Positions 7,859 through 56,972 of a stretch of DNA of 64,000 nucleotides are shown here, one piece after another. The notes below the pieces were generated by a model, which worked only from the letters and a program-made list of their open reading frames with translations, searched no databases and was not told the DNA's origin. Numbering within the stretch: the stretch's first letter is position 1; every line of letters starts with the position of its first letter. Source of the DNA: a bacterium (GTDB lineage: Bacteria > Patescibacteriota > Minisyncoccia > Phycocordibacterales > UBA2100). The position numbers and the translations under genes were made by a program. The stretch spans positions 131,603-195,602 of the forward strand of contig JAEUQT010000001.1 of NCBI GenBank assembly GCA_016789445.1. The letters are read 5' to 3'.

Positions 7859-9217
7859 TTATTCGATGAACGTGAGCGCCTTGCCGGTCTGCCCTGCGCG
7901 GCCCGTACGACCGATGCGGTGCACGTAATCCTCGTAGGAATTCGGCTGGTCGAAGTTGATGACGTGGGTCACCTTCGGGATGTCGAGGCCACGTGCGGCG
8001 ACGTCCGTCGCGACAAGCACCTGCACATGCTCTTTCTTGAAGAGATCGAGTGCGCGCAAACGCTGACCGTGGGTCTTGTTGCCGTGGATGGATTCCGCAC
8101 TGAAACCTGAATCCTTGAGGATCTTCGAGAGCTTCTCGACGCCGTGTTTGGTGCGGCCGAAGACCAGCACCTTCGTAAACTCCGGATCACGGAGAAGATC
8201 TGCAAGATGATCGAACTTGGACTTGCCCGGTTCGACGCGGACGATGTCCTGATCGACATTCTTGGAAGTCTCATGCTTTTTCACCGAGACACGAAGCGGA
8301 TCGGTGAGGAATTCACCGATGAGCTTCTCGATCTCCGGCGAGAGTGTCGCCGAGAAGAAGAGCGTCTGGCGTTCAGGCGCCATGCTGCCGAGGATGCGGC
8401 GCATGCTGTCGATGAATCCCATGTCGAGCATGCGGTCGGCTTCGTCGAGGACGACGTTCGCGCACTTCGTGAGATTGAGCTCACGGCGCTCCATGAGGTC
8501 CATGAGACGGCCCGGAGTTCCTATAAGGAATTGGCCTCCACGGCGAAGATCACGGATCTGCGAATTGATGTTCGCGCCGCCGACCGCGACGATCGAGTGA
8601 AGGCCGAGGCCCGTGACGAAGCCCTTGAATTCATCGGCGATCTGGACGGCAAGTTCACGCGTCGGCGCCATGATGAGCACCTTCTCGTCCGGATTCTTCA
8701 GGACCTTGTCGATGAGCGGGATGAGGAATGCGCCGGTCTTGCCGGTACCGGTCTCCGCGAGCCCGACCATGTCGCGACCCGTAAGAGTAAGCGGCACCGA
8801 TTGGTCTTGGATCGGAGTCGGGGTCACGTAACCCTTCTTCGCGATGTTCGCCTTGAGGCGTGCATCGATGTCGAAATCATTGAAGGTGTGCTTCGGCTCA
8901 TACGGAGCCTCCGGCGCTACTGCTTCTGCCTTACGAATGAACTTCGAGTAGTGGATATCCTGTCCGCGATGCGCGTTGCGCTGCGGACGACCCCCGCGGA
9001 ATCCTCCGCCGCGTGAACCGCCACGGAAACCGCCCTGAGGACGCGAGCCGCCATACGAACTCCCGCTACGACCGCCTTGCGGACGAGAGTATGAACCACC
9101 ACGCTGACCGCCTCCCCCGGAGGAGCGGCGCTTGTGACGAGGCGTACTGTTAAATCGGAGGCGGAAACCGCCTACCATGTCGTCGCTATTCTGCGAACGA
9201 CTATCGTTCTGATGCAT
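7859..9217 (-). CDS. DEAD-box ATP-dependent RNA helicase with N-terminal RGG/Gly-Arg-rich tail
   Basis: Q-motif region TPIQ, Walker A GTGKT, DEAD (VLDEADRMLDMGF), SAT and HRIGRTGR motifs. Confidence 0.9.
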   Translation of the reverse strand: MHQNDSRSQNSDDMVGGFRLRFNSTPRHKRRSSGGGGQRGGSYSRPQGGRSGSSYGGSRPQGGFRGGSRGGGFRGGRPQRNAHRGQDIHYSKFIRKAEAVAPEAPYEPKHTFNDFDIDARLKANIAKKGYVTPTPIQDQSVPLTLTGRDMVGLAETGTGKTGAFLIPLIDKVLKNPDEKVLIMAPTRELAVQIADEFKGFVTGLGLHSIVAVGGANINSQIRDLRRGGQFLIGTPGRLMDLMERRELNLTKCANVVLDEADRMLDMGFIDSMRRILGSMAPERQTLFFSATLSPEIEKLIGEFLTDPLRVSVKKHETSKNVDQDIVRVEPGKSKFDHLADLLRDPEFTKVLVFGRTKHGVEKLSKILKDSGFSAESIHGNKTHGQRLRALDLFKKEHVQVLVATDVAARGLDIPKVTHVINFDQPNSYEDYVHRIGRTGRAGQTGKALTFIE

Positions 9218-16502: not shown

Positions 16503-16629
16503 TAACGGCTCGTGTCTCTACACTTTTGAGCCCGCTCTTGATTTCATCAAAGCGAGCGCGGTCTACCTCCCTGAATTCTAGATTGTGAATTTCCATATTA
16601 CATGCGAGTACGCCAGACAAGGATACTTT

Positions 16630-16748
16630 GGAAACCCTCGGTTTTCCAACGGTCGCCGAAGCGACCTGCCTTCCGACACGGGGAACTCCCGTTCCCCGAC
16701 CCCCTCCCTATCCAAGTCTGGCAACAAATCTCGTTGCACTCAATTTGT
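16630..16748 (+). repeat. Family B tRNA-3'-flank element (GAAACCCTCGGTTT ... CTTCCGACACGG ... GC hairpin ... CCGACCCCCTCCC ... inverted copy of tRNA-Gln 3' end)
   Basis: Shares ordered motifs with 21886-21989. It ends in an 18-bp perfect palindrome formed with the tRNA-Gln 3' end (CCAAGTCTGGCAACAAAT / ATTTGTTGCCAGACTTGG). Confidence 0.6.
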
Positions 16749-16817
16749 TGCCAGACTTGGATTCGAACCAAGATACACTCCTCCAGAGGGAGTAGTCCTA
16801 CCATTAGACGATCTGGC
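16749..16817 (-). tRNA. tRNA-Gln (anticodon CTG)
   Basis: Manual fold: acceptor GCCAGAT/GTCTGGC, anticodon stem ACTCC/GGAGT with loop CTCTGGA, T-arm CTTGG-TTCGAAT-CCAAG. Shortish at about 69-70 nt. Confidence 0.7.
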
Positions 16818-17073
16818 AATTCCTAGCCATTCTACACATTTTTCCCCCGCCCTCAACGTAGCGTTCATGCGGAAGATACGCGACAATAGGGATATGCAGG
16901 ACAATCTCCGGCTGATCTTTTCGGGCCTTTGGTTCCCCGCGACAGGATCGCTGTTCGCGAGCACCCTTCTTTTCGTACTTACTTTGGGTGACTATTGGGA
17001 ATTCCTCCTCTACGCACTCGGCGCATGGATCATCTGCACCAGCGTCGTGATCCTCACCTCCCTCAATTCGTAG

Positions 17074-20533: not shown

Positions 20534-21442
20534 CTATTCTACTCGCTGCGCGGCGTCTATGAACGACTGGATGTCCCCTTCGAGCACCTTCTCGATGTCA
20601 CGGCGCTCATGCTCGGTACGATGGTCTTTGACGAGCTGGTACGGATGCAGCACATACGAGCGGATCTGGCTTCCCCACTCGATCTTTGTCGAAGCCCCCG
20701 CCGAAAGTCCGCGCGCTTCCGCTTCCGCTGCCGCTTCACGCATCTGGAACAGCTTTCCGCGGATCATCTCGAGCGCTTTCTCTTTGTTCTGGAGCTGGCT
20801 GCGCTCCGACGTGACATGGACGGAAATTCCGCTCGGCTTGTGCGTCATGCGCACGGCCGTGTCGCGCTTATTTACGTTCTGTCCGCCGGGGCCGCCGCTG
20901 CGCGCGACAGTGATCTCAAGATCGGTCTCGGGGATATGGTCATCACCCACGTCGGGCAGTTTCGGCAATACTTCCGCGAGCGCGAACGAGGTCTGCCGCT
21001 TTCCCGCGGAGCCGAAGGGAGAAATACGCACCAAGCGATGCACGCCTGCTTCTTTCTTCAAGGCGCCGTATGCGCCGTTGCCGCTTACTTCGAATGAGAT
21101 ACTGCGGAATCCTCCCATCGAATTCTCGTTGGATGAGAGGAGTGCATTCTTCCATCCGCGGTTGGCAGCGTATTTGGCATACATGCTGTAAAGGATGCGC
21201 GCGAAATCCTCCGCATCATCCCCTCCCGCGCCTGCGATGATCGAGATGATTGCGTCACCCTTGTCGTAGGAGCCTGCACCCGCAAGTTTCGCCTTCAGAT
21301 CTTGGTACTCCTTCAGTGTCGCCTGTGCCTTATCTTTATCCGACCAGAAATCCGGCAACCCCATTGCCGCCTCGATCTCTACGATGCGTGCCTCGATCAC
21401 CTCTTTCCCTTGCATGGCGGGAGTATAGCAAGAGGGGCGCAT
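20534..21442 (-). CDS. prfB: Peptide chain release factor 2 (compact, 302 aa)
   Basis: SPF tripeptide ([10 protein letters not shown]) and GGQ ([11 protein letters not shown]). SD GAGGGG upstream of the ATG at 21442; in-frame TGA 4 codons upstream rules out a longer N-terminus. Confidence 0.85.
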
Positions 21443-21724
21443 CTGCGCCCCTCAATGCAACGGCACTGCACGTACCAACATGATACGTATCGCGCCTTCC
21501 CATTGGACGAGGTCCCACACTCGAAATCGCGAGATACCTTCACCGTCTCGCGACGGAAGCGGAATTTCTTCCGATGTCTCACCGATATTCAAAAGCATGA
21601 GTATGACTTCCTCGTGATCAGGGTCGAGCTCAGCAACAAACTGAGGCTCATTGAGCCGATTACGGCAGTCCGCGAATACTCGCATGCGCGACCTCCTTTC
21701 CTCTTCCTGAAGTGTACACCCTCT

Positions 21725-21800: not shown

Positions 21801-21885
21801 AATGCGGATATCCTACGCGAAAATGCTGGATTTTCAATCTTACGGTCCGGGATTTCACTGCTCGCCGTATTCTCGGCTGCGCTTT

Positions 21886-21989
21886 CGAAACCCTCGGTTT
21901 CGAATAACTTCCGACACGGAGGGGGTCCGGTGGGTCCCCCTCCGACCCTCCCCCGTTCAATCCCGGTCGGGCCTCTCGCTACGCTCGTG
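21886..21989 (+). repeat. Family B tRNA-3'-flank element (second copy) between the two tRNA-Thr genes
   Basis: Ordered motifs shared with 16630-16748: GAAACCCTCGGTTT, CTTCCGACACGG, GC hairpin GAGGGGGTCC...GGTCCCCCTC, CCGACCCTCCCC, then an inverted copy TTCAATCCCGGTCG of the tRNA-Thr(GGT) T-arm. Confidence 0.55.
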
Positions 21990-22062
<73 letters not shown>

Positions 22063-25666: not shown

Positions 25667-25685
25667 GTTTGAGTGACGGGACTCG

Positions 25686-25902
25686 GTCACAGATATTTCT
25701 TGCGCCGTCGGACAGATTTTTTCGCGACCATAGGCATCGTCTCGGCCAAGAGCTCATTCGTCGCCGTCGCTCCTCATTCCTCTCGGCCCTGATTTTGCGA
25801 CCCCGTCTGCTGACGGGTCCGCCGCAAAATCTTTCGAGTCCCGCCACTCTGCTGAAAAACGCAACAACCCCGACGGCATGCGTCGGGGTTGGCGTTTTGC
25901 GC
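25686..25902 (+). repeat. Family A tRNA-3'-end-associated miniature element, copy 1 (degenerate), at tRNA-Asp
   Basis: Begins GTCACAGATA plus a hairpin. Contains an inverted copy TTCGAGTCCCGCCACTC of the tRNA-Asp T-arm/acceptor and a terminator hairpin CCCCGACGGCATGCGTCGGGG. Flanked by a 15-bp direct repeat GAGTGACGGGACTCG (25671-25685 and 25903-25917) equal to tRNA-Asp nt 56-72. Confidence 0.7.
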
Positions 25903-26352: not shown

Positions 26353-26387
26353 CTCTCTATTCTATCGTAGTGTCGAGGGTGGGGGTC

Positions 26388-26538
26388 GGTCACGAATAAT
26401 TTCTGTCCCGTCGGACAGAAATTTTCGCGACCCCGGCTCGCGGTCTCGCCTGCTGGCGAGACATCGCTCCGCCTTTCGACCCCCACACGCTGTGTGCGCA
26501 GGCACACAGCCCTCGACACAAATCCACTTCGTATATTT
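26388..26538 (+). repeat. Family A element, copy 2 (canonical), at tRNA-Met
   Basis: GTCACGAATAAT; hairpin ATTTCTGTCC-CGTC-GGACAGAAAT; core TTTTCGCGACCCCGGCTCGCG-GTCTCGCC-TGCT-GGCGAGAC-ATCGCTCCGCC. Then an inverted tRNA 3'-half mimic TTCGACCCCCAC[hairpin]CCTCGACAC. Flanked by a 19-bp direct repeat (26369-26387 and 26539-26557) equal to tRNA-Met nt 56-74. Confidence 0.8.
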
Positions 26539-26539
26539 G

Positions 26540-26613
26540 TGTCGAGGGTGGGGGTCGAACCCACGACCTTGGCTTTATGAATGCCACGCTCTAACCAACT
26601 GAGCTACCCCGAC
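26540..26613 (-). tRNA. tRNA-Met (anticodon CAT; elongator Met or lysidine-Ile type)
   Basis: Manual fold: acceptor GTCGGGG/CCTCGAC, anticodon loop TTCATAA, T-arm GTGGGTTCGACCCCCAC. Confidence 0.75.
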
Positions 26614-27164: not shown

Positions 27165-27421
27165 CGCAGGGCGGGCTTGGTCAAGAACATTTCTTGCTTC
27201 CGTCGAAGCAAGAAATTTCTCGGCCCTGATGTTGCGGGGGCGGGCTTGGTCACGGATAATCTTCGCGCCGTCGCGCGAAGATTTCCGCGACCCCGGCTCG
27301 CGGTTTCGCCCACTGGCGAAACATCGCTCCGCCTTGCAAGTCCAGCACGAAAAGCGCACCGGCGCTTTTCTCCCCGCGACTGCACAAACACAAAACCGCC
27401 CGTACGGCGGCTTTGTGTTTG
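27165..27421 (+). repeat. Family A element, copy 3 (canonical) plus a tandem partial unit (27165-27227), at tRNA-fMet
   Basis: Partial unit GGGCGGGCTTGGTCA plus hairpin ATTTCTTGCTTC-CGTC-GAAGCAAGAAAT. Full unit from 27247: GTCACGGATAAT, hairpin ATCTTCGCGC-CGTC-GCGCGAAGAT, core TTTCCGCGACCCCGGCTCGCG-GTTTCGCC-CACT-GGCGAAAC-ATCGCTCCGCC, inverted T-arm mimic TTGCAAGTCCAGC, terminators. Direct repeat TGTTGCGGGGGCGGG (27228-27242 and 27422-27436) equals tRNA-fMet nt 60-75. Confidence 0.8.
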
Positions 27422-31891: not shown

Positions 31892-32344
31892 CTAGTAGCT
31901 GAGCTCGACGGAGCGCTGGAGCGCGCGACCGGAGAGCGAAATATCCGAGCAGGGCGTGCTGAAACCATCGGCATGGATGACCGTCCGCGGATCGGTCGTC
32001 TTTTTCTCCACCGCCACCTGCACGCAGTAGCCATTCGGTTCGAACTCGAATTCCATGGTGTATGGCAGCGCTCCCGGCGCGCCGGTAATGGTGAGCGGTG
32101 CACCGTTGCATGCCGGATCGAGTCCCGGGGTCGTGCTGCTGAAATATTCATAGCGCACGTCCCAGTACAGCGCACACTCAGCGCCGGTATCCGCCGCATA
32201 GAATGCATATTGCGAACTGCGCCCCAAGGACGAGAGGATGACCTGTTTCTGCGCAACGCTGAAAATCGAGATGCCCAGCGTAAGGACCAAGGACGCTACG
32301 AGTGCCGAGAACAATATCGTGAAGCCGCGCTGGTTTTTCATCAT
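31892..32344 (-). CDS. Type IV pilin-like minor pilin/pseudopilin (no Glu5)
   Basis: N-terminal QRGFTILFSALVASLVL prepilin-like segment. Confidence 0.55.
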   Translation of the reverse strand: MMKNQRGFTILFSALVASLVLTLGISIFSVAQKQVILSSLGRSSQYAFYAADTGAECALYWDVRYEYFSSTTPGLDPACNGAPLTITGAPGALPYTMEFEFEPNGYCVQVAVEKKTTDPRTVIHADGFSTPCSDISLSGRALQRSVELSY

Positions 32345-32889
32345 ACGCTTCCATCGTTAACCCAGCGGTACAGATTCTCGTAGATCGTAAACGTGCGGAG
32401 CTGATTGAGGCCGCCCGTCGTCCATTCGACAGTGACGGTGACGCGGATCTCATCCTGCGTACCTTCGACGTACTCCGCCTCGACGGTCCGACGATATTTG
32501 GTACTCGCCCATCCGGTACTGTACCCGTAGAGGTCCCCATCAGTCTGCAGATACTGACAGGTGCCCGAGCAGGTAGCGATGGCGTTATTGCGCGTATCGA
32601 TGGTGAATGGTGTGCCGATCGGGATATTGCATAGCAGCGTCATCGGGGTGCACGCCGGATCAGGCTGATCATAGGCGATGCGCAGGATATTCCCGTCGCG
32701 GATCGAGCGCACCGATTCGATCGCCTCCTGTCCGAGATTGAATGCCGCGATCTGGTCACGTGCGTAATACGCAGCGGAAAGCGATTGCATGGTGAGTGAC
32801 ATCGGCGCCACGATCGCCACCGTGAGGATGGTGATCGCGACCAAGGTCTCGATGAGCGTCATCCCTTTTTGTGATTCGTGCGTTTTCAT
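32341..32889 (-). CDS. Pseudopilin with prepilin-type N-terminal cleavage/methylation domain
   Basis: KG/MTLIETLVAITILTVAIV motif; start trimmed to MKTHESQKG. Confidence 0.7.
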   Translation of the reverse strand: MKTHESQKGMTLIETLVAITILTVAIVAPMSLTMQSLSAAYYARDQIAAFNLGQEAIESVRSIRDGNILRIAYDQPDPACTPMTLLCNIPIGTPFTIDTRNNAIATCSGTCQYLQTDGDLYGYSTGWASTKYRRTVEAEYVEGTQDEIRVTVTVEWTTGGLNQLRTFTIYENLYRWVNDGSV

Positions 32890-32890
32890 A

Positions 32891-33466
32891 TCAGATATCG
32901 AGCGCACGCTGCACCGCGGTTGCCTGGATGTAGAACGTGGTACGGGTTTTCTCGTCATTGCCGGCACTTCCCTTCACCACGACCACGACCTTCGGCTGGG
33001 TGATGTCTCCCGGCTGGGTTCCGATGACATAGAACGTCAGTTCTTCGATGGAGATCTCCGGTGCCGTGATCGGGATCGAATTCGTGCCGCCGTTGAGCGA
33101 TCGATAGATGCGCCCTCCCTGGATGAAATATACCGCGCGCTCATTCTGCTGGGTGCTATCTGATCCATATGGAGCGAACGAAAAGAGATCGTCACCATTC
33201 GCGCAGTCTGCTCCTACGGCGCCTGGAATACCTGATCCGTTGCAATTGTAATGCGTACCCATGCGCGCGGCGCGTACCATGCTGTCCAGAGAGATATTGA
33301 GGTTGTTCATGACGCTCTCGAGCGTACGCGCCTTACGGTTCGCGTCCACGAGAGCCAGGAGCGCACCGACGGCGACCAGCATGATGATCGCGAAAAGCGA
33401 TACGGAAACCATCATCTCGACGAGCGAGAAACCCTTCTCAGAACGTATGTCGCGAGAAGATGTCAT
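32891..33466 (-). CDS. Pseudopilin with prepilin-type N-terminal cleavage/methylation domain
   Basis: KG/FSLVEMMVSVSLFAIIM. Confidence 0.7.
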   Translation of the reverse strand: MTSSRDIRSEKGFSLVEMMVSVSLFAIIMLVAVGALLALVDANRKARTLESVMNNLNISLDSMVRAARMGTHYNCNGSGIPGAVGADCANGDDLFSFAPYGSDSTQQNERAVYFIQGGRIYRSLNGGTNSIPITAPEISIEELTFYVIGTQPGDITQPKVVVVVKGSAGNDEKTRTTFYIQATAVQRALDI

Positions 33467-34053
33467 TGTACGGAGATCTGGCCCGAAGCTTCGACGATGA
33501 CTTCTGATTGTTCGCCGCTGCGAGACTGCAGCACGATACGCGCCCGGTCATCGAGCGTGGCCCCTGCGGAGCGGCGGATCATCGCATCCGGCTCGGGACG
33601 CCTGAAGAGCATGCTCAGCTGGGACAAACTACAGGTCTCGATCCCGTTCATCGCTCGGGCGCAGATATTCGCGATGCGGTATCCGCCGTTGAGCGTGGTC
33701 GAGGTGACCGTCTCTCCTGTATCGAAAACGCCGTTCTGGTTCACATCCCCGAACAGCACGTACGAACTCAGGGCATCCTCTGCCGGCTGCGTGATATGGA
33801 TCCCGTATCCCACATCGAAATTGACTCCTTGATACCGACGCACGGCGATACCGTAGACCTGTGCCTGACGGACCGAAAGCGCCATGTCATGCGCGAGGTT
33901 CTGTAAGACGATGAGATTGCCGAAGCGCGCGTTCGTCGAGAGGACCACGCCAGAGAGGATCATGAAGATCCCGGTCACTACCATCAATTCCACAAGACTA
34001 AAGCCCCGGGAAAGCCGAGAATCGGTGCGTAGGAATATATGAGAGCGAACCAT
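33463..34053 (-). CDS. Pseudopilin (prepilin N-terminal domain plus larger C-terminal domain)
   Basis: MVRSHIFLRTDSRLSRG/FSLVELMVVTGIFMIL; the start at 34053 overlaps the pilD 3' end by about 70 nt in another frame. Confidence 0.6.
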   Translation of the reverse strand: MVRSHIFLRTDSRLSRGFSLVELMVVTGIFMILSGVVLSTNARFGNLIVLQNLAHDMALSVRQAQVYGIAVRRYQGVNFDVGYGIHITQPAEDALSSYVLFGDVNQNGVFDTGETVTSTTLNGGYRIANICARAMNGIETCSLSQLSMLFRRPEPDAMIRRSAGATLDDRARIVLQSRSGEQSEVIVEASGQISVQ

Positions 34054-34835
34054 ACGATGCTGGTGCCGATGATGAGGAACGGTCCGAACGGCACTTCGCT
34101 CTTCATTGTAAATCCCTCCTTCCCTCCTCCCAAGCGAGTTATCCCAAGAGAATGGAGGACCTTCACGATATGCGGAAGCGGAATAAGGATGAATACTCCT
34201 ATGATCGCGCCGATGACGAAAGAATACATGAGCGCCAAATATCCGTACCCAAGGCCGAGAAGCCATCCCATACCGAGCGCGAATTTCACATCGCCGAACC
34301 CCATCCACGTACCACGCGAGATGAGCCACATGAGGAAAAGCGGGAGCGAAACCAGCGGCCCTGCCACGAGAAGCCACACGTAGGGCACCCACTCCCCCGT
34401 TGGCGCAAAGAGATACATGAGATAGAGGGAGAATACGAGCGCCAGAGCATTGAAACTCCACACCCATCGATCAGGCATGATCATGTGGTAGAGGTCGTAC
34501 ACGAATATCGCGATGCAGAAAATCGCAATCGCGCACCCGATCACCTGCGCGATAAGAGGAAGCGGCGCGAGACCGAGCATAAGAAACGAGATTCCTGCCG
34601 CGAGTTCGACTACGGGATACTGGACGGAGATCGAGGCACGGCACGAGGAGCACTTCCCGCGCAGCATGAGCCACGAAAGGACGGGAAGAAGCTCGTGCCA
34701 TGCAAGCACCCTGCCGCATTTCGGACACGAACTTCGTCCATCAAGCGCGCGCGTGCCGTGGCGAAGGATGAGCACATTCGTGAAGCTGCCGAAGATGAGG
34801 CCGAATCCGAGCCAGACGACGGCCTCGTAGAGCAT
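33984..34835 (-). CDS. pilD: Prepilin peptidase (A24 family)
   Basis: N-terminal Cys tetrad (CPKCG...CSSC), about 8 TM helices, catalytic Asp context (FGDVKFALGMG). Confidence 0.85.
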   Translation of the reverse strand: MLYEAVVWLGFGLIFGSFTNVLILRHGTRALDGRSSCPKCGRVLAWHELLPVLSWLMLRGKCSSCRASISVQYPVVELAAGISFLMLGLAPLPLIAQVIGCAIAIFCIAIFVYDLYHMIMPDRWVWSFNALALVFSLYLMYLFAPTGEWVPYVWLLVAGPLVSLPLFLMWLISRGTWMGFGDVKFALGMGWLLGLGYGYLALMYSFVIGAIIGVFILIPLPHIVKVLHSLGITRLGGGKEGFTMKSEVPFGPFLIIGTSIVWFALIYSYAPILGFPGALVLWN

Positions 34836-34896
34836 GCGGAGATTCTAACAGAAAAGCACACCTCTCGGTGTGCTTTTCCTTCAGAACAGAGAGAAA

Positions 34897-35388
34897 CTAC
34901 GGCGTTACGCAGAAGCGCGCGGTCGCACCACTGTCAGAGCAGTCGATGCCGCCGATCGGATTGGTATCAACATCGCCCGCAGGAACGGCCGAAGATCCAC
35001 CTTCGATATCAGCACCAATGACATAGCCTGGGCACGCTGGAGACGTTGTCGTACATGCAGTCGTACCGTCTGCCGCGAGCGCTGCATAGCTGTACGGCGC
35101 GAGCGTCGTCGGATCAAGCGGAAGCGCCGAGATGTACTTGCTGGTGACGAGCACCGACGTGGTTGCTGAGGCAAACGCTTCGGTAGCCGTCGGGAAACGC
35201 TGGTTTGCATCGTAGTAAAGCTCAAGCGCCAACTGAAGCTGCTTGATGTCGGAGATACGGCGTGCATCGCGACCCTTCTTACGGGCGCTGTTGAGTGACG
35301 CCAGGACGACCGACGAGAGGATACCGATGATGGCGATCACCACGAGGAGCTCGATGAGGGTGAAGCCGCGCTGAGATCGATTAAACAT
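34897..35388 (-). CDS. Type IV pilin (major pilin candidate, paralog 1)
   Basis: RG/FTLIELLVVIAIIGILSSVVLASL with Glu5; Cys-containing C-terminal domain. Confidence 0.85.
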   Translation of the reverse strand: MFNRSQRGFTLIELLVVIAIIGILSSVVLASLNSARKKGRDARRISDIKQLQLALELYYDANQRFPTATEAFASATTSVLVTSKYISALPLDPTTLAPYSYAALAADGTTACTTTSPACPGYVIGADIEGGSSAVPAGDVDTNPIGGIDCSDSGATARFCVTP

Positions 35389-35425
35389 AGTTATGATTGC
35401 GTTAATCCGCTAATGAATAACAAAC

Positions 35426-35872
35426 TTACGGTTGCTGACAGTACATCGGATCGGTGCAGGTTACGCTACCCACCGTACCGTCGATGTCCTGACTGAGCGC
35501 TGCGTTCGCCGTATCCTCAAGCGTTGCGCCGAGGATGTAGCTCGCACAGACACCGCCGCTTTGCGTACATGCTGCACCCGCGCTCGTAAGGTTATCGAAC
35601 GAGTACGAGCCCGATTGAGGATCTGTCGGCACGACTGAGATGTATGTCGGCGCAAGCTGCGAGAGAGCATCCGGATACTCGCTCGAGTTATTGTCATAAA
35701 AGAGCTCGAGCGCCAACTGAAGCTGCTTGATGTCGGAGATACGGCGTGCATCGCGACCCTTCTTACGGGCGCTGTTGAGTGACGCCAGGACGACCGACGA
35801 GAGGATACCGATGATGGCGATCACCACGAGGAGCTCGATGAGGGTGAAGCCGCGTTCATTTCGTGAAAACAT
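35426..35872 (-). CDS. Type IV pilin (major pilin candidate, paralog 2)
   Basis: N-terminal ~60 aa identical to paralog 1 (about 150 nt perfectly identical DNA); divergent C-terminal domain. Confidence 0.85.
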   Translation of the reverse strand: MFSRNERGFTLIELLVVIAIIGILSSVVLASLNSARKKGRDARRISDIKQLQLALELFYDNNSSEYPDALSQLAPTYISVVPTDPQSGSYSFDNLTSAGAACTQSGGVCASYILGATLEDTANAALSQDIDGTVGSVTCTDPMYCQQP

Positions 35873-35978
35873 AGAATTGTGAATAAACGGTTAAAATTTG
35901 ATCGCTATGCACGCTACGCGCGATGCAATCATCATACGGCACATCACACTCCCCTTGTCGAGTGGGTGTGTATAACCG

Positions 35979-37184
35979 CTAGATACCTGACGCGATGTTG
36001 TAGATAGGCACGAGGACCGACGCGAGAAGGATGGCGACGCCGACGGCGAGCATGACGATCATGAACGGCTCGATGAGTGAGACGAGCGTGTCCACTGCGT
36101 TATTCACTTCGCGGCGGTAGAACTTCGCAATGGAATCAAGGATCGAACCCATATTGCCGGTCTCTTCGCCGATCTTGATCATCGCCACCATGATGCCCGG
36201 GATCTCCGGATGCTTACGGAACGCTTCGGAAACCGGCATACCGGCCTTCACGTCGACCGCTGCTTCGCGCAGGACGCGCTCGTACGTCGGGTCTTCGACG
36301 ACGGTGCCGGTGATCTCGAGTCCGCGCAGCATCTGAATACCCGATCGGAGCATGGTTGAGAGGTTGTCAGCGAGACGCGAGAGATAGAGGTTCTGATAGA
36401 TACCGCCGAGGACCGGGACCTGTAATCGTGCACGCGAGAAGACCACCTGACCGGTTTGTGTCTTGATGTAGCGATAGAGGAAAAAACCCGCAAGGACGAC
36501 GAGGATACCCCAGAGCAGTGCGTAATTGGCGAAGAGATTACTCATGCCGATGACGACGCGAGTATAGACCGGCACCGACTGCCCCACTTCCGTGAGCATG
36601 CCCGCGAGCTTCGGGATCACCAGCGTCATCATGAGCACCATGACGATGACGAACGTTCCCACGATGAACGCCGGATAGATGAGTGCGTTCTTCGCTTTCG
36701 CCGTGATTTCGTAGTTACGATCGAGGTAATCCGCGAGATAGGCAAACGTCTCATCGAGCTTGCCGGATTCCTCGCCGGCACGGATCATGTTCACATAGAA
36801 ACCGGAGAAGACTTCCGGATGCCGGGAAAGCGCCGCTGAAATCGCGCTACCCGCTTGGATATCCGATGCGATCGCGGAGAGTTTTGCAGCAAGCTGCGGC
36901 GTGCGTGCCTCCGCCGCAAGGAGCTGGAATCCGCGAAGCGCGGAAACCTGCGCCTCGAACAGCGTCGTCATCTGACGCGAGAGCATCACGATATCGCTCC
37001 CCTTGATACCGCTGAATATCTGGATGCTCCTCTGAAGGCCGACTTTCTGATCCGCCGGATCGATGGATGCGATGATGAGGCCGCGGCGCTGCAGAGCCGC
37101 GATCGCGACATCGATGTTCACCGCATCGACCGTACCGCTACGATCCGCTCCCTTATCGTCGACTGCCTTGTAGGAAAACAACAT
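35979..37184 (-). CDS. pilC: Type IV pilus assembly platform protein PilC (GspF family)
   Basis: Two GspF repeats and three TM segments. Confidence 0.85.
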   Translation of the reverse strand: MLFSYKAVDDKGADRSGTVDAVNIDVAIAALQRRGLIIASIDPADQKVGLQRSIQIFSGIKGSDIVMLSRQMTTLFEAQVSALRGFQLLAAEARTPQLAAKLSAIASDIQAGSAISAALSRHPEVFSGFYVNMIRAGEESGKLDETFAYLADYLDRNYEITAKAKNALIYPAFIVGTFVIVMVLMMTLVIPKLAGMLTEVGQSVPVYTRVVIGMSNLFANYALLWGILVVLAGFFLYRYIKTQTGQVVFSRARLQVPVLGGIYQNLYLSRLADNLSTMLRSGIQMLRGLEITGTVVEDPTYERVLREAAVDVKAGMPVSEAFRKHPEIPGIMVAMIKIGEETGNMGSILDSIAKFYRREVNNAVDTLVSLIEPFMIVMLAVGVAILLASVLVPIYNIASGI

Positions 37185-37190
37185 ACTGGC

Positions 37191-38258
37191 TTAGAGCAAT
37201 TTCTGGAGCACGTTCGGATTGAGCGAATACTGGTAGGCGGTCTCGACGGTGATCTCTCCGCGCGAGACGAGTTCCGAAAGCGAGCGATTCATATCGATCA
37301 TGCCTTCCGCGGAAGAGGTCTCGATGACCGTATTGATCTCGTGCGTGCGTTTCTCGCGGATAAGATTCGCGACGGCTTTATTGTTGATGAGAAGCTCGTA
37401 CGCCGGGATGAGACCACCGGAAATGCGCGGCACGAGACGCTGCGAGAAGATCCCCGCGAGCGATGAGCCGAGCTGCAGGCGGATCTGATCCTGCTGCGAC
37501 GCCGGGAAGGTATCGATGATGCGGTCGATGGTCTGTGCTGCGTTGTTCGTGTGGAGCGTCGAGAAGACGAGGTGACCCGTTTCTGCCGCCGTGACCGCCG
37601 CGGCCATGGTTTCCGGTCCACGCATCTCCCCCACCAATATCACGTCCACGTCCTGACGGAATGCGCTCACCAGCGCGGTCGCGAAATCCTTCGTATCAAG
37701 AAGCACTTCACGCTGATCGATGATGGAGCGCTTCGGTTCGTAGATGTATTCGATCGGGTCCTCGATGGTGACGATGTGCTCCATGCGTTCCATGTTGATC
37801 ATCTCGATCATCGCGGAGAGCGTAGTCGATTTGCCCTGCCCGACCGGACCGACTACCAGGAAGAAGCCTTGGTTCTTGCGAGCGAACGTCGTGAGGATAT
37901 CCGGCAGGTTGAGCTCCTGCAGCGTCTTGATCTGCTTCGGAATAAGACGCAAAGCTATACCTACTGCACCGCGCTGGAAGAAAGCATTGCCGCGGAAGCG
38001 GTTTCCATCTGCGGTTTGATACGCGAAATCCAGCTCGAGCGTCGAGAAAAACCGGCTCTGCTGGTCCTGGTTGAGAAGCACCTTCGCGTACCCCATCGTG
38101 TCCTCTGCAGTAAGAACCGGCTCCTTGAGCATCGGGGTGAGATTCCCCGCGACACGGATCGTCGGGTGTGCACCGGTAGAAAAATGAAGGTCGGATCCGC
38201 CTTCATGCGTCAGGACCGTGATGTACTTCTTCAGCTGTGCATCGTAATCGAGCGCCAT
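37191..38258 (-). CDS. pilT: Type IV pilus retraction ATPase PilT
   Basis: 355-aa PilT-type secretion ATPase with Walker A GPVGQGKST, Asp box and His box. Confidence 0.85.
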   Translation of the reverse strand: MALDYDAQLKKYITVLTHEGGSDLHFSTGAHPTIRVAGNLTPMLKEPVLTAEDTMGYAKVLLNQDQQSRFFSTLELDFAYQTADGNRFRGNAFFQRGAVGIALRLIPKQIKTLQELNLPDILTTFARKNQGFFLVVGPVGQGKSTTLSAMIEMINMERMEHIVTIEDPIEYIYEPKRSIIDQREVLLDTKDFATALVSAFRQDVDVILVGEMRGPETMAAAVTAAETGHLVFSTLHTNNAAQTIDRIIDTFPASQQDQIRLQLGSSLAGIFSQRLVPRISGGLIPAYELLINNKAVANLIREKRTHEINTVIETSSAEGMIDMNRSLSELVSRGEITVETAYQYSLNPNVLQKLL

Positions 38259-38319
38259 GAAATATATTGTAACGTACTTTTATAGGTCCCCCTCCCTATC
38301 CACACGCCGATGACGCGTA

Positions 38320-38706
38320 TCACTTCATTCCGATCTCTTCCTTCACCATTGAGACGACTTCCGACGGGATCATACTCGCCTTCACGACGTATTTCTGCGC
38401 ACCGAGCTCTTCCGCGTGCTTGCGATCGGCATCGTTGCTCTGGTTCGTGAGCGCGATGAGACGCGCGGTGCCGCCGAGCTTCTCGTCGCGGACGCCTTTC
38501 AGGAATTCGAAACCATCCTGTCCCGGCATGGTGATATCGAACAGGATGACATCAGCTTTCGCACCGCCGCGCAGCGCTTCTATTGCCTCATGCACTGAGA
38601 AACACGAGATCACCGTGAATCCTTCCTGCGTGAATTTAAGGCTGTACATGTCGAGGAGGAACTTATCATCGTCCACCAACATCACTGTCTTTCCGTTTTC
38701 TGCCAT
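38320..38706 (-). CDS. Single-domain response regulator (CheY/PilH-like receiver)
   Basis: REC domain VMLVDDD ... ILFDITMPG ... K. Confidence 0.75.
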   Translation of the reverse strand: MAENGKTVMLVDDDKFLLDMYSLKFTQEGFTVISCFSVHEAIEALRGGAKADVILFDITMPGQDGFEFLKGVRDEKLGGTARLIALTNQSNDADRKHAEELGAQKYVVKASMIPSEVVSMVKEEIGMK

Positions 38707-38714
38707 AGTGAAAA

Positions 38715-40442
38715 TTAATTCGTTTTCGTATCTTCTGGTTCTTCAGTATCAGCGGGCGTCTCTTCGGTAGCGGCAGGCTTTTTCTCTTCCGGCTCTTCCT
38801 CCGTATCCAAGAGGAGCGATGAGAGCGTATTCACTTCAGAGAACGGGACCTGCTTCGCGAACGCTTTCATTGTAGCATCCTCGCGCATCGTGAGCATTCC
38901 CTGCTCGCGTGCCGACGCCCAGATCTTCGAATCCACCGGGTTGGTAAGGACGATCTTCTCGATTGCGGTCGTCATTTCCATCACCTCGAAGACCGCGGCA
39001 CGTCCACGCATACCCGTCGGACATGCGGCGGTACGCTCTGGCTCATACACGGTGTCTTGTATCGGGAATCGGTATTCCTTCGGAAGGCTCGCCATATCCA
39101 TTTCCATCGACTTTCGATCGCTGGCGGAGAGCGGTACTGCCTTGCCGGTACCAGGACAAAGCGTACGCACGAGACGCTGCGCCATCGAAAGGATAAGCAC
39201 CGGTGGAATGAGGTACGGCTCCACTCCCATATCGATAAGGCGAGGGATGGTGCCGACCGCATCGTTGGTGTGGATCGTTGAGAGCACCAAGTGACCGGTG
39301 AGCGCCGCCTGCATCGCGAGCTTCGCCGTCTCACCGTCGCGGATTTCGCCGACCATGATGACATCCGGGTCCTGACGGAGCGTCGTGCGCAGACCGTTCG
39401 CGAACGTATACCCGATCTCAGGACGCACTTGTGACTGGATGATACCGTCGACGTGATATTCGATCGGATCCTCGAGTGAGAGCACGTTCTTATGCTCGCG
39501 ATCGAGCTCCGCAAGCATCGAGTAGAGCGTCGTGGATTTACCGGAACCGGTCGGACCCGAGATGAGGATGAGTCCGTGCGGTCGTTGGATCGCGTCGCGC
39601 ATGAGACGGAGATTGCGTTCCGAAAGACCGATCTGATCAAGTGGGATGAATCCCTGATCACGATCGAGGATACGCATCACCACCTTCTCACCGGCATACG
39701 ACGGGAATGTGGAGACACGGAAGTCGATCTGGCGATTGTCGAATGACGCCGAAAAGCGTCCGTCCTGCGGCTTACGTCGCTCGTCGAGTCGGATCGAGGA
39801 GAGGACCTTGATACGGGCGACAACTGCGCGATGCGTCTCAAGCGGCAAGACGACGCTGGTATGCAGATCGCCGTCGACACGATAACGGACGCGAAGCCCG
39901 GCGGAGGTCGGTTCGACGTGGATATCGGATGCTTTTCCGTCGATCGCATAGCGCAGGATCGTCGAGACGATCTTGATCGCTGGCGCGTCCTCGGTGATTG
40001 AACCTCCTCCTTCGGTAGCTCCCGCAAGATTGCCGAGCTGCAGCATCCCTTCATCGTCGGTCTCTTCTTTCTTGCGACCACTGGTACGCTCTTCCGATTC
40101 GAGGTCAGAGAGCGCCTTATCGACCTCCCCACCCAAACCCTTATACATCGAGAGGATCTTCTGCAGATCCTGTTCGCTCATGCGGAAGATCTTGAACGGC
40201 ATTCCCGTCTTGCGGGCGATGAAGTTCAATGCATCGATAGCAGCGATGTTATCGGGATCCACCATGCCGACCTCCAAGACATCCTCGACGACACCGAGCG
40301 GCGCGAGCTTATAGTGTTCCGCGGATTCCTGCGGGATGAATTTGAGGACATCGTACGGGATCTTCTGCTCGCCAAGAGTACGCGTCGGGATCGCGTTCGC
40401 GGCATTTCCCTGCCCTGCGCCTGCCTGGACCTCAGGAGGCAT
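38715..40442 (-). CDS. pilB: Type IV pilus assembly ATPase PilB (GspE family)
   Basis: N-terminal GspII-like domain; Walker A GPTGSGKSTTLY; Asp/His boxes; tetracysteine region. Confidence 0.85.
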   Translation of the reverse strand: MPPEVQAGAGQGNAANAIPTRTLGEQKIPYDVLKFIPQESAEHYKLAPLGVVEDVLEVGMVDPDNIAAIDALNFIARKTGMPFKIFRMSEQDLQKILSMYKGLGGEVDKALSDLESEERTSGRKKEETDDEGMLQLGNLAGATEGGGSITEDAPAIKIVSTILRYAIDGKASDIHVEPTSAGLRVRYRVDGDLHTSVVLPLETHRAVVARIKVLSSIRLDERRKPQDGRFSASFDNRQIDFRVSTFPSYAGEKVVMRILDRDQGFIPLDQIGLSERNLRLMRDAIQRPHGLILISGPTGSGKSTTLYSMLAELDREHKNVLSLEDPIEYHVDGIIQSQVRPEIGYTFANGLRTTLRQDPDVIMVGEIRDGETAKLAMQAALTGHLVLSTIHTNDAVGTIPRLIDMGVEPYLIPPVLILSMAQRLVRTLCPGTGKAVPLSASDRKSMEMDMASLPKEYRFPIQDTVYEPERTAACPTGMRGRAAVFEVMEMTTAIEKIVLTNPVDSKIWASAREQGMLTMREDATMKAFAKQVPFSEVNTLSSLLLDTEEEPEEKKPAATEETPADTEEPEDTKTN

Positions 40443-40445
40443 ACG

Positions 40446-40814: not shown

Positions 40815-40817
40815 ACA

Positions 40818-42130: not shown

Positions 42131-42133
42131 ATC

Positions 42134-44412: not shown

Positions 44413-44435
44413 AATTGCGGAGAGGGAGGGATTCG

Positions 44436-56730: not shown

Positions 56731-56743
56731 CAGCCAATGCAAG

Positions 56744-56912
56744 CCGCCTTCCAGGCGGCTTTTGCATTTGCATTGCGACGGTGGAGATGAAGAAAGCGCC
56801 TGCGCGCTTTCTGCGGGGGTCTCGAAAGGCGGAGCGCTGTTCCGACAGCAGGCGGAACCGCGAGCCGGGGTCGCGGAAATTCAAAGGCGACGGCGTTTGA
56901 ATTATCTGTGAC
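56744..56912 (-). repeat. Family A element, copy 7 (inverted orientation), at tmRNA gene 3' end
   Basis: Reverse complement reads GTCACAGATAAT, hairpin (TTCAAACGCC-GTC-GCCTTTGAA), TTTCCGCGACCCCGGCTCGCG-GTTCCG-CCTGCTGT-CGGAAC-AGCGCTCCGCC, T-arm-like TTTCGAGACCCCCGC, a hairpin, then TCATCTCCAC (copy of the tmRNA 3' acceptor strand). Direct repeat CGATTCCGC (56713-56721 and 56913-56921) equals the tmRNA T-loop from nt 56. Confidence 0.75.
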
Positions 56913-56972
56913 CGATTCCGCCGCCGATATTCCTTCATGCAACCTTATGTGTTTTGATACGTCCACTGAGAT

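What the first reader, a model, noticed from the sequence alone, without database searches (positions are those of the whole stretch)
16630..16748. Second repeat family (B) in tRNA 3' flanks (tRNA-Gln and tRNA-Thr GGT), also ending in an inverted copy of the host tRNA 3' end
16630-16748 and 21886-21989 share an ordered core. It reads GAAACCCTCGGTTT, then CTTCCGACACGG, then a GC-rich hairpin, then CCGACCC(C)CTCCC. Each then carries an inverted copy of the neighbouring tRNA 3' end. For tRNA-Gln this is CCAAGTCTGGCAACAAAT, forming an 18-bp perfect palindrome with the gene end. For tRNA-Thr it is TTCAATCCCGGTCG. Possible degenerate far-end duplications exist: GCCAGAC at 16622 and CCGGGATT at 21856. 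Together with family A, this suggests a general, lineage-specific organisation of tRNA trailers by tailored elements.
Basis: seen in the sequence. Interest (0 to 1): 0.65.

Follow-up and report, generated by a model that had tools for sequence, protein, structure and literature searches.

The report
Target-tailored insertion cassettes behind CPR tRNA genes
The two "family B" repeats are real members of a widespread and apparently undescribed class of small protein-less cassettes in Patescibacteria (CPR bacteria) that sit at the ends of tRNA, tmRNA and ribosomal-protein genes and carry a built-in complement of their own target next to a conserved folded core, which suggests insertion guided by base pairing.

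Summary
A covariance model finds exactly two family-B cores in the window, each 3' of a tRNA gene (Gln, Thr-GGT).

In the tRNA-sense orientation each cassette has this order:
- the gene end (T);
- a short GNA-triloop hairpin;
- an antisense copy of T (antiT; 20/20 nt for Gln);
- a conserved core of 75-100 nt;
- a degenerate direct copy of T (T').

Named genomes are nearly all Patescibacteria. About 60-70% of hits lie behind tRNA/tmRNA genes (31 anticodons). Most others lie at the ends of protein genes such as rpsI and rpmG, where the distal copy is a second, synonymously different gene end.

Tandem, nested, cargo-carrying, circularly permuted and empty sites all exist. A strain whose flanks are 96% identical carries a different B subtype at the same tRNA.

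The core has a covarying hairpin and a covarying mirror repeat that follows the purine triple-helix code. It is absent from Rfam 15, from IMG/VR and from the papers I could search. No recombinase was found.

Best reading (about 0.5): a non-autonomous, base-pairing-guided, site-specific insertion cassette that acts as folded single-stranded nucleic acid, with an unknown enzyme supplied in trans.

The parts
16747..16818 (-). tRNA-Gln(CTG), host gene. Its last bases plus 4 trailer nt (16743-16762) are the target segment T.
   Evidence: ARAGORN; Rfam tRNA; palindrome arm
16730..16742 (-). 13-nt apex between T and antiT (TGAGTGCAACGAG). It contains a GNA-triloop mini-hairpin, GTGCAAC.
   Evidence: Sequence. 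The same class of apex (GAGCGAAGTGAGC-like) recurs in many B modules.
16710..16729 (-). antiT(Gln): perfect 20-nt reverse complement of the tRNA-Gln 3' end plus trailer. Guide-like segment.
16699..16709 (-). J segment (AGGGAGGGGGT). Purine run that mirrors the 5' strand of hairpin P_a; proposed third strand of a triplex.
   Evidence: mirror covariation
16679..16698 (-). Hairpin P_a (CGGGGAAC-GGGA-GTTCCCCG)
   Evidence: covariation of the helix
16669..16678 (-). Conserved joiner. With the last three bases of P_a it reads CCGTGTCGGAAGG (invariant CCGTG..GGAAG).
   Evidence: Invariant columns in alignment A2
16649..16668 (-). Optional hairpin (CAGGTCGC-TTCG-GCGACCGT). Present in a subset of family members.
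16629..16648 (-). Hairpin P_b (TGGAAAACC-GAG-GGTTTCCA) with the invariant AAACCGWGGGTTT.
16608..16628 (-). Linker plus T'(Gln): AAG-TATCCTTGTCTGGCGTAC, a degenerate direct copy of the tRNA-Gln 3' end. It pairs with antiT 12/14, with a TT/TT mismatch. Locus L049 has the same TATCCTTG variant.
   Evidence: (I2)
21989..22062 (-). tRNA-Thr(GGT), host gene. Its 3' end (21996-22016) is the target segment T.
21955..21975 (-). antiT(Thr): GAGGCCCGACCGGGATTGAAC. 14 nt are an exact complement of the T loop and T stem; the acceptor part is degenerate.
21884..21954 (-). B core (Thr copy): J 21945-21954, P_a 21917-21944, joiner 21905-21916, P_b 21884-21904. Subtype B2.
   Evidence: covariance-model hit 21881-21956
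21855..21883 (-). B2-specific 3' extension (AGCGCAG...CGAGCAGTGA) that precedes T' in this subtype.
   Evidence: Same extension in L016, L019, L100, L101, L102; coordinates
21842..21854 (-). T'(Thr): AATCCCGGACCGT, a degenerate direct copy of the tRNA-Thr 3' end. Intact (ATCCCGGTCGTCGGCTCCA) in the related strain L003.
26370..26519 (-). Family A cassette behind tRNA-Met (26539-26613), shown for comparison. Two-part antiT (26510-26519, 26475-26488), core 26388-26474, exact 18-nt T' 26370-26387.
56780..56922 (+). Family A cassette behind the tmRNA gene (56347-56731). Same architecture, on the strand of its host gene.

Best explanation
Family B is one core type of a superfamily of small, protein-less insertion cassettes in Patescibacteria. 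Families A and at least one more (C) are other core types.

Each cassette lies at the end of a highly conserved gene. Read along the target, it consists of:
1. a replacement copy of the gene end, downstream of the junction;
2. a terminator or a GNA-triloop mini-hairpin;
3. a 15-22-nt reverse complement of the target (antiT);
4. a conserved folded core: a purine strand J laid against hairpin P_a as a triple helix, the joiner CCGTG..GGAAGG, and hairpin P_b;
5. a short arm that imitates the 5' half of the target's own small hairpin but carries a deliberate 1-3-nt mismatch;
6. the displaced original gene end (T').

Proposed mechanism. The cassette is mobilised as a folded single strand. DNA is favoured; RNA is not excluded. 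antiT is held beside the scaffold and is first paired imperfectly with the cassette's own T-like arm. It then swaps onto the perfectly matching target strand. An enzyme supplied in trans, not identified, exchanges strands at the 3' edge of the target's hairpin loop. The gene is thereby rebuilt from the cassette's copy and its old end is pushed downstream.

Shown here: the anatomy, the tailoring, the distribution, the covarying structure, and the signs of turnover, tandem arrays, nesting and cargo.

Inferred: the single-stranded intermediate, the strand swap, the point of exchange and the existence of a dedicated enzyme.

The two window copies are older members. antiT is intact for Gln and partly intact for Thr, and both T' copies are decayed.
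For: Architecture and tailoring
- 62 of 224 tRNA/tmRNA genes in the loci and window have a B core flanked, in order, by at least 9 exact nt of antisense and at least 9 exact nt of direct copy of their own 3' end.
- 86/121 genome hits lie 43-265 nt 3' of a same-strand tRNA, covering 31 anticodons. In metagenomes the figure is 72/122.

Insertion signatures
- At rpsI and rpmG a second copy of the gene end follows the core, and it differs from the first at synonymous positions (TCC/AGC, AGT AAG CGA / TCG AAA AGA).
- Tandem arrays: L041, L017, L049, and A followed by B in L013.
- A family-C element is nested in the P_a loop of a B element in L236.
- Cargo of 1-2.2 kb lies between T and antiT in L090, L102 and L120.
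- Empty sites exist.
- The window and L003 have 96% identical flanks but carry different B subtypes at tRNA-Thr.

Guide-like behaviour
- The 20 nt 5' of J match the upstream functional gene end (median 15/20) better than T' (median 11/20; control 10) in 91 of 108 modules.
- The proximal part of T' is constant for the element and mismatched with antiT. Examples are TATCCTTG versus AATCCAAG, CTGCTGG/CTGCTTG versus CTGCAAA, and CATTGG versus CAATGG.

Folded core
- P_a is 96.9% paired and 6 of 9 pairs show changes on both sides. The covariation score is 0.352 against 0.134 in shuffles, reached by 0/500 shuffles.
- The J/P_a mirror relation follows G.G, A.A or T.A in 292 of 368 cells, against 222 +/- 7 in shuffles, reached by 0/2000.
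- Circularly permuted versions occur in L035 and L037.

Favouring DNA over RNA
- T-runs lie upstream of about 64% of the B modules assessed, 53 of 83.
- Only about 1% of P_a cells are G.U, despite heavy covariation.
- The apexes are of the GNA/GCGAAGC mini-hairpin type.
- The smallest units are about 110 nt (L034), too small for a double-stranded circle (my inference).

Not already catalogued: no Rfam match.
Against: - No recombinase, transposase, HUH enzyme or reverse transcriptase was found in the 64-kb window, among genes recurring next to the modules, or in the cargo.
- No free (unintegrated) copy was seen, and IMG/VR gave no hits.
- Core similarity hardly tracks the target (0.773 for the same target against 0.743 for different targets). 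Either retargeting is easy, by a route I cannot specify, or cores are shuffled by gene conversion.
- B modules occupy orthologous sites (Gln, Thr-GGT) across genomes whose PyrG is only about 79% identical. That also fits long-term retention for a host function.
- The orientation and the chemistry (DNA or RNA) of the active strand are not determined. The same mirror repeat would give a pyrimidine-motif triplex on the opposite strand.
Confidence: 0.5

Rival explanations
1. The same cassettes, but with no dedicated enzyme. They would be selfish 'gene-end duplication' cassettes that spread only through natural transformation and RecA recombination or homology-facilitated illegitimate recombination. 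The conserved gene would serve as the left homology arm and T' as a short right arm. antiT and the core would stabilise or protect the incoming single strand rather than guide a recombinase.
For: No enzyme was found. The window encodes a complete type IV pilus set (PilB, PilT, PilC, PilM, pseudopilins), and CPR bacteria are known to take up DNA (my knowledge). The targets are the most conserved sequences of a genome: tRNA, tmRNA, rpsI, rpmG. Replacement of one B subtype by another at the same site between close strains is what homologous replacement would produce.
Against: It does not explain why antiT is always present and tailored. It does not explain the strongly conserved, covarying and permutable core. 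It does not explain how new targets are colonised. A right arm of 13-18 nt is very short for RecA (my knowledge).
Confidence: 0.2
2. A host-serving cis-acting structured RNA in the 3' trailers of tRNA and ribosomal-protein transcripts, for example for 3'-end processing, termination or quality control. On this view the antisense segment pairs with the transcript's own 3' end, and T' neutralises it after folding.
For: - Very high occupancy: 8 of 9 tRNA/tmRNA genes in the window and about two thirds of 224 genes in the loci.
- The module always has the orientation of its target.
- Orthologous sites are retained across distant genomes.
- Modules are enriched at tRNA genes that do not encode CCA: 103/176 against 16/44.
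- Family A has a conserved G.T wobble in a covarying helix on the sense strand (sequences).
Against: - Terminator-like T-runs separate the gene from the module in about 64% of the B modules assessed, and there is no room for a promoter.
- Modules also occur at the 5' ends of opposite-strand protein genes.
- The duplicated gene ends with synonymous differences, the tandem arrays, the nesting and the cargo are insertion signatures.
- At least three unrelated cores share the same layout.
- G.U pairs are nearly absent from P_a.
Confidence: 0.15
3. Decayed attL/attR scars of ordinary tyrosine-integrase islands or prophages that once sat in these tRNA genes. The conserved 'core' would be a shared attP arm.
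For: There are direct repeats of the tRNA 3' end that start in the T loop. tmRNA and tRNA genes are classic integrase targets. Protein genes have restored ends, as with dusA-type islands (my knowledge).
Against: One core is found with more than 30 different targets. The units are as short as about 110 nt and carry no integrase. The target complement, the triplex-hairpin core and the circular permutation have no counterpart in attP arms. There are no hits in viral contigs.
Confidence: 0.05
4. Chance similarity, or ordinary intrinsic terminators that happen to use the tRNA acceptor strand.
For: Hairpins after tRNA genes are common.
Against: Each motif occurs exactly twice in the window, and shuffles give 0.51. 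The covariance-model E-values are 1e-15 to 3e-17. There are hundreds of copies elsewhere. The window B copies contain no terminator-like site.
Confidence: 0.01

Closest known systems
IS110/IS1111 elements with bridge RNA / seekRNA
   Same: A mobile element carries, next to a conserved structured scaffold, a sequence complementary to its own target. Targets are often hairpin-forming. Specificity could in principle be changed by changing the guide.
   Different: No DEDD/serine recombinase gene was found. There is a single contiguous guide (two-part in family A) instead of two loops with split guides for target and donor. The duplication is 13-50 nt of the gene end rather than a 2-nt core. The cassette rebuilds the gene. 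Features point to DNA rather than RNA. The core matches no Rfam model.
IS200/IS605 single-strand transposons and their miniature PATE derivatives
   Same: Small hairpin-rich elements that act as single-stranded DNA. The cleavage site is found by base pairing, including base triples, with a 'guide' beside a hairpin foot. Non-autonomous copies are mobilised in trans.
   Different: The guide there is 4-5 nt, not 15-22 nt. There is no duplication of the target, there are two distinct ends, and the targets are tetra- or pentanucleotides. No Y1 transposase was seen here.
Folded single-strand recombination sites: integron attC and CTX-phage attP(+)
   Same: An imperfect hairpin whose stem mimics a double-stranded recombination site and has an unpaired central patch. 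Small cassettes accumulate in tandem. Cassettes may carry promoterless cargo.
   Different: In attC the stem boxes are conserved and the centre varies. Here the stem varies (it equals the target) and the centre is conserved. The targets are many gene ends, not attI or dif. No IntI was found, and a role for Xer was not tested.
Tyrosine-integrase genomic islands in tRNA/tmRNA genes
   Same: Insertion in the T-loop region. There is a direct repeat from the T loop to the 3' end. The gene is restored by an element-borne copy. Protein gene ends can also be targets.
   Different: No integrase is present, and units are as small as about 110 nt. One core serves more than 30 targets. The element carries a complement of the target.
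MITEs / REP-like repeats
   Same: Short, structured, multi-copy, non-coding and non-autonomous.
   Different: There are no terminal inverted repeats and no short target-site duplication. Each copy is individually tailored to its insertion site.

Membership tests
Tyrosine-integrase tRNA island (att scar) | Direct repeats of the 3' part of the tRNA gene flank the insert | tested here: met
   Exact direct copies of 8-21 nt follow the core. They are degenerate in the two window copies and intact in L003.
Tyrosine-integrase tRNA island (att scar) | An integrase gene inside the element or beside it | tested here: not met
   Pfam scans of the window ORFs found none. The cargo ORFs look like UbiA-like, dCTP-deaminase-like, GNAT and JAB-like proteins; I assigned these by eye from the translations and did not scan them with Pfam. 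The recurrent neighbouring ORFs, likewise read from their translations, look like ribosomal proteins, RpoA and a release factor.
Tyrosine-integrase tRNA island (att scar) | One attP arm goes with one target or very few | tested here: not met
   The same core is found at 31 anticodons plus tmRNA, rpsI, rpmG and other genes.
IS110/IS1111 bridge-RNA element | Element-encoded DEDD (RuvC-like) plus Tnp recombinase | tested here: not met
   No such ORF in the window or in the cargo.
IS110/IS1111 bridge-RNA element | A non-coding RNA with two internal loops, each carrying split guides for target and donor | tested here: not met
   The core is J plus P_a, a joiner and P_b, with one guide 5' of it. No Rfam model matched at E up to 10.
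IS110/IS1111 bridge-RNA element | The element carries a complement of its target | tested here: met
   antiT is an exact 9-24 nt complement of the upstream gene end. The median match is 15/20, against a control of 10.
IS200/IS605 / PATE | Insertion 3' of a 4-5-nt target, without target duplication | tested here: not met
   13-50 nt of the gene end are present twice.
IS200/IS605 / PATE | A Y1 HUH transposase available in the genome | not testable with these tools
   Only 64 kb of this genome and 8-kb pieces of the others were readable. None was seen in them.
Integron attC / CTX attP(+) type folded site | An imperfect hairpin with an unpaired central patch, active as a single strand | tested here: inconclusive
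   The antiT:T' stem has 4-5 bp, then a 1-3-nt mismatch, then at least 7 bp in every target class I examined. Activity as a single strand was not tested.
Integron attC / CTX attP(+) type folded site | Conserved R/L boxes (GTTRRRY) or Xer-binding arms in the stem | tested here: not met
   The stems are the target sequences themselves and share no motif beyond the T loop.
Known structured RNA families (Rfam 15, including self-cleaving ribozymes) | A match to a curated covariance model | tested here: not met
   At gathering score only tRNA and tmRNA were found in the window, and only tRNA plus one unrelated LOOT hit in 18 loci. At E up to 10 only hairpin/miRNA noise appeared.
Intrinsic terminator | A GC-rich hairpin followed by a U-run | tested here: not met
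   There is no terminator-like site within either window B copy. The hairpins are followed by purine-rich sequence.
MITE | Terminal inverted repeats plus a short target-site duplication generated on insertion | tested here: not met
   The inverted partner of antiT is the target itself. The two copies of the gene end differ at synonymous sites, so they are homologous ends and not a fill-in duplication.

The most novel reading that the evidence does not exclude
Patescibacteria harbour a previously unrecognised, nucleic-acid-programmed site-specific integration system. A scaffold of about 70 nt, built around a purine-motif triple helix, presents a complement of about 20 nt to the target. It works as folded single-stranded DNA and lets a trans-acting (possibly host) enzyme insert small cassettes into any matching hairpin-bearing gene end while rebuilding the gene. 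This would be a DNA-based counterpart of bridge-RNA recombination, with a single guide serving both donor and target.
Probability: 0.3. Interest if true: 0.92.

Novelty: new variant of a known kind. Interest (0 to 1): 0.8.

Why it matters
If the reading is right, a large and poorly understood part of the bacterial tree carries, at most of its tRNA genes, a compact element that encodes its own target address by base pairing and needs no gene of its own. Three things would follow.
1. It would explain why CPR assemblies break at tRNA genes and why tRNA flanks look repetitive.
2. It would add a new solution to how mobile DNA finds safe sites, namely rebuilding the end of an essential gene.
3. It would point to a short programmable scaffold, and an enzyme still to be found, of possible use for targeted insertion.

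The triple-helix covariation is also a rare natural case of a conserved purine-motif triplex. The hypothesis can be tested directly in the Saccharibacteria that are now transformable.

Tried and rejected
1. Rfam at gathering score and at E up to 10, on the window and 18 loci. No family matched.
2. Ribozyme, PBS-like and box C/D readings.
   - No Rfam ribozyme model matched.
   - antiT includes TGG only when CCA is encoded in the gene (window Ile, L096). It therefore complements the gene and not the mature tRNA, which argues against a primer-binding site.
3. Search for an enzyme.
   - Pfam on about 50 window ORFs.
   - Clustering of 1391 ORFs around 121 modules.
   - ORFs in six cargo candidates.
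   - No recombinase was found.
4. Viral contigs for the B and A cores: 0 hits.
5. Test for purifying selection, using strains about 97% identical at the tRNA-Ile family-A module. The module is nearly identical, but divergence in these strains is mosaic, with identical tracts of up to 1.4 kb. No inference is possible.
6. Replication-strand test. GC skew is negative across the whole window, and the tmRNA module is on the opposite strand from the others. Orientation therefore follows the target and not the replication fork.
7. Counting G.T against A.C mismatches to fix the active strand. There are too few mismatches to decide.
8. Further strain contigs around the Asp/Met and tmRNA loci were 100% identical to the window and uninformative.
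9. Eight literature searches, including the literal core sequences, found no description. The library lacks most subscription journals.
10. Chi-site, DNA-uptake-sequence and single-strand-origin readings of the GCGAAGC motifs were considered. They are not supported by copy number or context.
Full report
**1. Observation**

All eight tRNA genes of the window lie on the minus strand, and a tmRNA gene lies on the plus strand.

GAAACCCTCGGTTT and CTTCCGACACGG each occur exactly twice in the 64 kb, in the same order and orientation. Shuffled sequence gives 0.51 matches to the 14-mer even with two mismatches allowed.

The inverted copy of the tRNA-Gln end is a perfect 20-nt palindrome, 16710-16729 with 16743-16762. 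The tRNA-Thr copy is 14 nt exact within arms of 21 nt at 90% complementarity. The far-end direct copies exist but sit about 10 nt from the stated positions, at 16612 and 21847.

A covariance model built from 46 family members and run without filters finds exactly these two copies. They score 67.9 and 62.2 bits, with E between 1e-15 and 3e-17.

**2. Anatomy on the tRNA strand**

Each copy reads as follows:
- the gene end T;
- a short apex with a GNA-triloop mini-hairpin;
- antiT, the reverse complement of T;
- a purine segment J;
- hairpin P_a;
- the joiner CCGTG..GGAAGG;
- an optional hairpin (Gln copy only);
- hairpin P_b, with the invariant AAACCGWGGGTTT;
- a linker;
- a degenerate direct copy T'.

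A contig from a strain whose flanking genes are 96% identical (L003) carries a different B subtype at the same tRNA-Thr. There T' is intact: ATCCCGGTCGTCGGCTCCA.

Family A shows the same logic with a different core and a two-part antiT. It lies behind tRNA-Asp, two tRNA-Met genes, tRNA-Ser, tRNA-Ile and the tmRNA gene. Several copies have exact 17-18-nt T' copies that begin in the T loop. Thus 8 of the 9 tRNA/tmRNA genes in the window carry a module. Only tRNA-Thr(CGT) is empty.

**3. Distribution**

The pattern CCGTGNNGGAAG-N(3-30)-AAACCGWGGGTTTC has about 24 specified bases. By my estimate well under one chance hit is expected in 596 Gb.
Nearly all named records are Patescibacteria: Saccharibacteria, Paceibacterota/Parcubacteria, Kaiser-, Nomura-, Yonath-, Taylor-, Campbell-, Wolfe- and Zambryskiibacteria.
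- It hit at least 120 stretches in JGI metagenomes.
- It hit nothing in IMG/VR.

The window itself belongs to this group. Its prfB-ftsE-ftsX-pyrG block, flanked by Thr-GGT/Thr-CGT and tRNA-Gln, is syntenic with L020, L046, L049 and L051. PyrG is 74-79% identical to theirs.

**4. Association and tailoring**

In the genome set 86 of 121 cores lie 43-265 nt downstream of a same-strand tRNA, and 31 anticodons are represented. In metagenomes the figure is 72 of 122.

Among 224 tRNA/tmRNA genes in the loci and window, 62 have a B core bracketed, in order, by at least 9 exact nt of antisense and at least 9 exact nt of direct copy of their own end. A further 13 have the same bracket around cores that matched neither of my family A or B patterns. 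These include B-like and A-like variants and a distinct family C whose core ends in GTACYG..CCTGTAAGGA.

**5. Not only tRNA genes**

Many of the remaining cores sit at the ends of protein genes, with the same layout:
- the C terminus of ribosomal protein S9 (...KKARKAPQWSKR*);
- the CKWC region of L33;
- the N-terminal ends of genes on the opposite strand.

At these sites the core is followed by a second copy of the gene end that differs from the functional one at synonymous positions. The two copies are therefore homologous ends of different origin. They are not a fill-in duplication.

All targets contain a small hairpin:
- the T arm of tRNAs;
- CTCCA-CAA-TGGAG in rpsI;
- CTGCA-AATGG-TGCAG in rpmG.

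**6. Signs of insertion and turnover**
- Tandem arrays: L041, L017, L049, and A followed by B in L013.
- A family-C element nested in the P_a loop of a B element (L236).
- Insertions inside P_a (L058, L088).
- Cargo of 1-2.2 kb between T and antiT, with no recombinase.
- Empty orthologous sites.
- Replacement of one B subtype by another between close strains.
- Short-read contigs of this organism end inside the modules, as expected for multi-copy repeats.

**7. antiT behaves like a guide for the target**

The 20 nt next to J match the upstream functional gene end better than T'. The median is 15/20 against 11/20, with a control of 10. This holds in 91 of 108 modules.

The proximal part of T' is constant for each class of element. 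It differs from the target by 1-3 nt in the loop or stem of the target's hairpin:
- Gln: TATCCTTG in both the window and L049, against AATCCAAG in the tRNA;
- rpmG: CTGC-TGG/TTG/TAACG-TGGTGC against CTGC-AAA-TGGTGC;
- rpsI: CATTGG against CAATGG;
- tRNAs: GTTCG-TAG-TC against GTTCG-AA-TC.

The stem formed by antiT and T' therefore always has 4-5 bp, a mismatch, and then at least 7 bp. The antiT-target duplex is continuous.

I infer two things from this. The junction lies at the 3' edge of the target's hairpin loop. The mismatch biases antiT to leave its own arm for the target.

**8. The core is a folded single strand**

In alignment A2, P_a is 96.9% paired and 6 of its 9 pairs change on both sides. 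The covariation score is 0.352 against 0.134 in shuffles (0 of 500 reach it), and it falls when the partner is slid.

Unexpectedly, J is a mirror image of the purine strand of P_a and covaries with it:
- GGGGAAAG with GGGAAAAC;
- GGGGGAAG with GGGGAAAC;
- GGGGAGAGA with GGGAGAGA;
- GGGTAGGGAG with GGAAGGGGAG.

Like-with-like or T.A holds in 292 of 368 cells, against 222 +/- 7 in shuffles (0 of 2000 reach it).

G.G, A.A and T.A on antiparallel strands are the code of the purine-motif triple helix (established knowledge of triplex DNA). On the opposite strand the same repeat would give a pyrimidine-motif triplex.

Circularly permuted cores occur in L035 and L037, and probably in L153 and L172. 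In these the P_a loop is opened and the former ends are joined. This indicates that the fold matters and not the linear order.

**9. DNA or RNA?**

DNA is favoured, for these reasons:
- About 64% of the B modules assessed (53 of 83) are preceded by a run of at least four T, terminator-like, with no room for a promoter.
- P_a has only about 1% G.U despite heavy covariation.
- The apex and optional hairpins are mostly of the GNA/GCGAAGC type, known to be unusually stable in DNA (my knowledge).
- The purine motif is a DNA motif.
- The smallest units are about 110 nt (L034).

Some points run the other way. There is a UUCG loop in the window Gln copy and a conserved G.T wobble in a family A helix. 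No expression data are available. The question stays open.

**10. Enzyme**

None was found. The window encodes housekeeping genes, a type IV pilus set, RecG, LigA, and a DinB, a MazF-like protein and a LexA-like protein. It has no integrase, transposase, HUH enzyme or reverse transcriptase. The ORFs that recur near modules, read from their translations without a family search, look like ribosomal proteins, RpoA and a release factor.

The cassettes are therefore non-autonomous. The partner is either elsewhere in the genomes, or is a host function, or does not exist. The last case is the second-ranked explanation: spread by transformation and recombination only.

**11. Comparison with known systems**

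The cassettes work most like guide-bearing site-specific elements:
- IS110/IS1111 with bridge or seek RNA;
- IS200/IS605 with DNA guides and base triples;
- folded single-strand sites (integron attC, CTX attP).

Their outcome is that of tRNA-targeting integrase islands: the gene end is rebuilt and the old end displaced.

They fail defining features of each family (see the membership table), so I do not file them under any. No Rfam family matched, and no paper in the searchable library describes them or contains the core sequences. That library lacks most subscription journals.

**12. Verdict**

The two B copies are ageing members of a Patescibacteria-wide superfamily of target-tailored, protein-less gene-end cassettes with a covariation-supported triplex-hairpin core.

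My confidence that they are base-pairing-guided insertion cassettes acting as folded single strands is about 0.5. The main rivals are:
- the same cassettes spreading by recombination alone (0.2);
- a host-serving cis-RNA (0.15);
- scars of ordinary integrase islands (0.05).

I rate the novelty as a new variant of a known kind, namely site-specific mobile elements that find their target by base pairing. Interest is 0.8.

Noticed in passing
window 25671-25849, 26370-26519, 27231-27343, 44417-44557, 50983-51110 (all -), 56780-56922 (+): Six family A cassettes lie behind tRNA-Asp, two tRNA-Met genes, tRNA-Ser, tRNA-Ile and the tmRNA gene. Each has a two-part antisense, the core AGGCGGAGCGATG-hairpin-CCGCGAGCCGGGGTCGCGRAAAT-hairpin-ATTATYYGTGACC, and then a direct copy of the gene end. 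The Asp copy has an extra insert of about 60 nt. The Ile copy has a duplicated 3' motif and no clear T'.
   Followed up: partly
window 59577-59619 (-): An orphan 3' half of a family A core (GAGGCGGGGTTGCGGAAAT...ATTATCCGTGAC) lies about 20 nt upstream of the start of a DinB-type polymerase gene (58252-59556). It is next to MazF-like (59683-60168) and LexA-like (60188-60808) genes, with no tRNA nearby. Short-read contigs end here.
   Followed up: partly
L005, L013, L031, L039, L122; L236 about 9100-9210: A third core family (C) has the same antisense-core-direct-copy layout and ends in GTACYG..CCTGTAAGGA before T'. In L236 one copy is nested inside the P_a hairpin loop of a family B element at rpsI.
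   Followed up: partly
L035, L037; L153, L172: Circularly permuted family B cores. P_a closes the whole module, and J follows P_b instead of preceding P_a.
   Followed up: partly
window 56347-56731 (+): The tmRNA has an unusually long predicted tag, ANKTARGVLSPIQVKDLGFAFA. The smpB gene lies just upstream (55783-56226; SmpB domain seen on the identical contig L131).
   Followed up: no
window 20534-21680 (-): prfB is split into a short upstream ORF (77 aa in the contig gene calls) and a 302-aa ORF. This is consistent with the usual programmed +1 frameshift of release factor 2.
   Followed up: no
window 32341-43285: A type IV pilus/competence-type cluster: pseudopilins with an N-methylation motif, PilC (T2SSF), PilT and PilB (T2SSE), and PilM. 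This is relevant to uptake of single-stranded DNA.
   Followed up: no
L001 end (window 16674), L002 end (16749), L129 end (25786), L131/L132 end (59606): Independent short-read assemblies of the same organism break inside or at the edge of A and B modules. This indicates that the modules are multi-copy in the genome.
   Followed up: partly
L100 6610-6725 (-): An Rfam LOOT RNA hit (73.7 bits) in a CPR contig, unrelated in position to the B module of that locus.
   Followed up: no
loci: Modules are more frequent behind tRNA genes that do not encode CCA (103 of 176) than behind those that do (16 of 44).
   Followed up: partly
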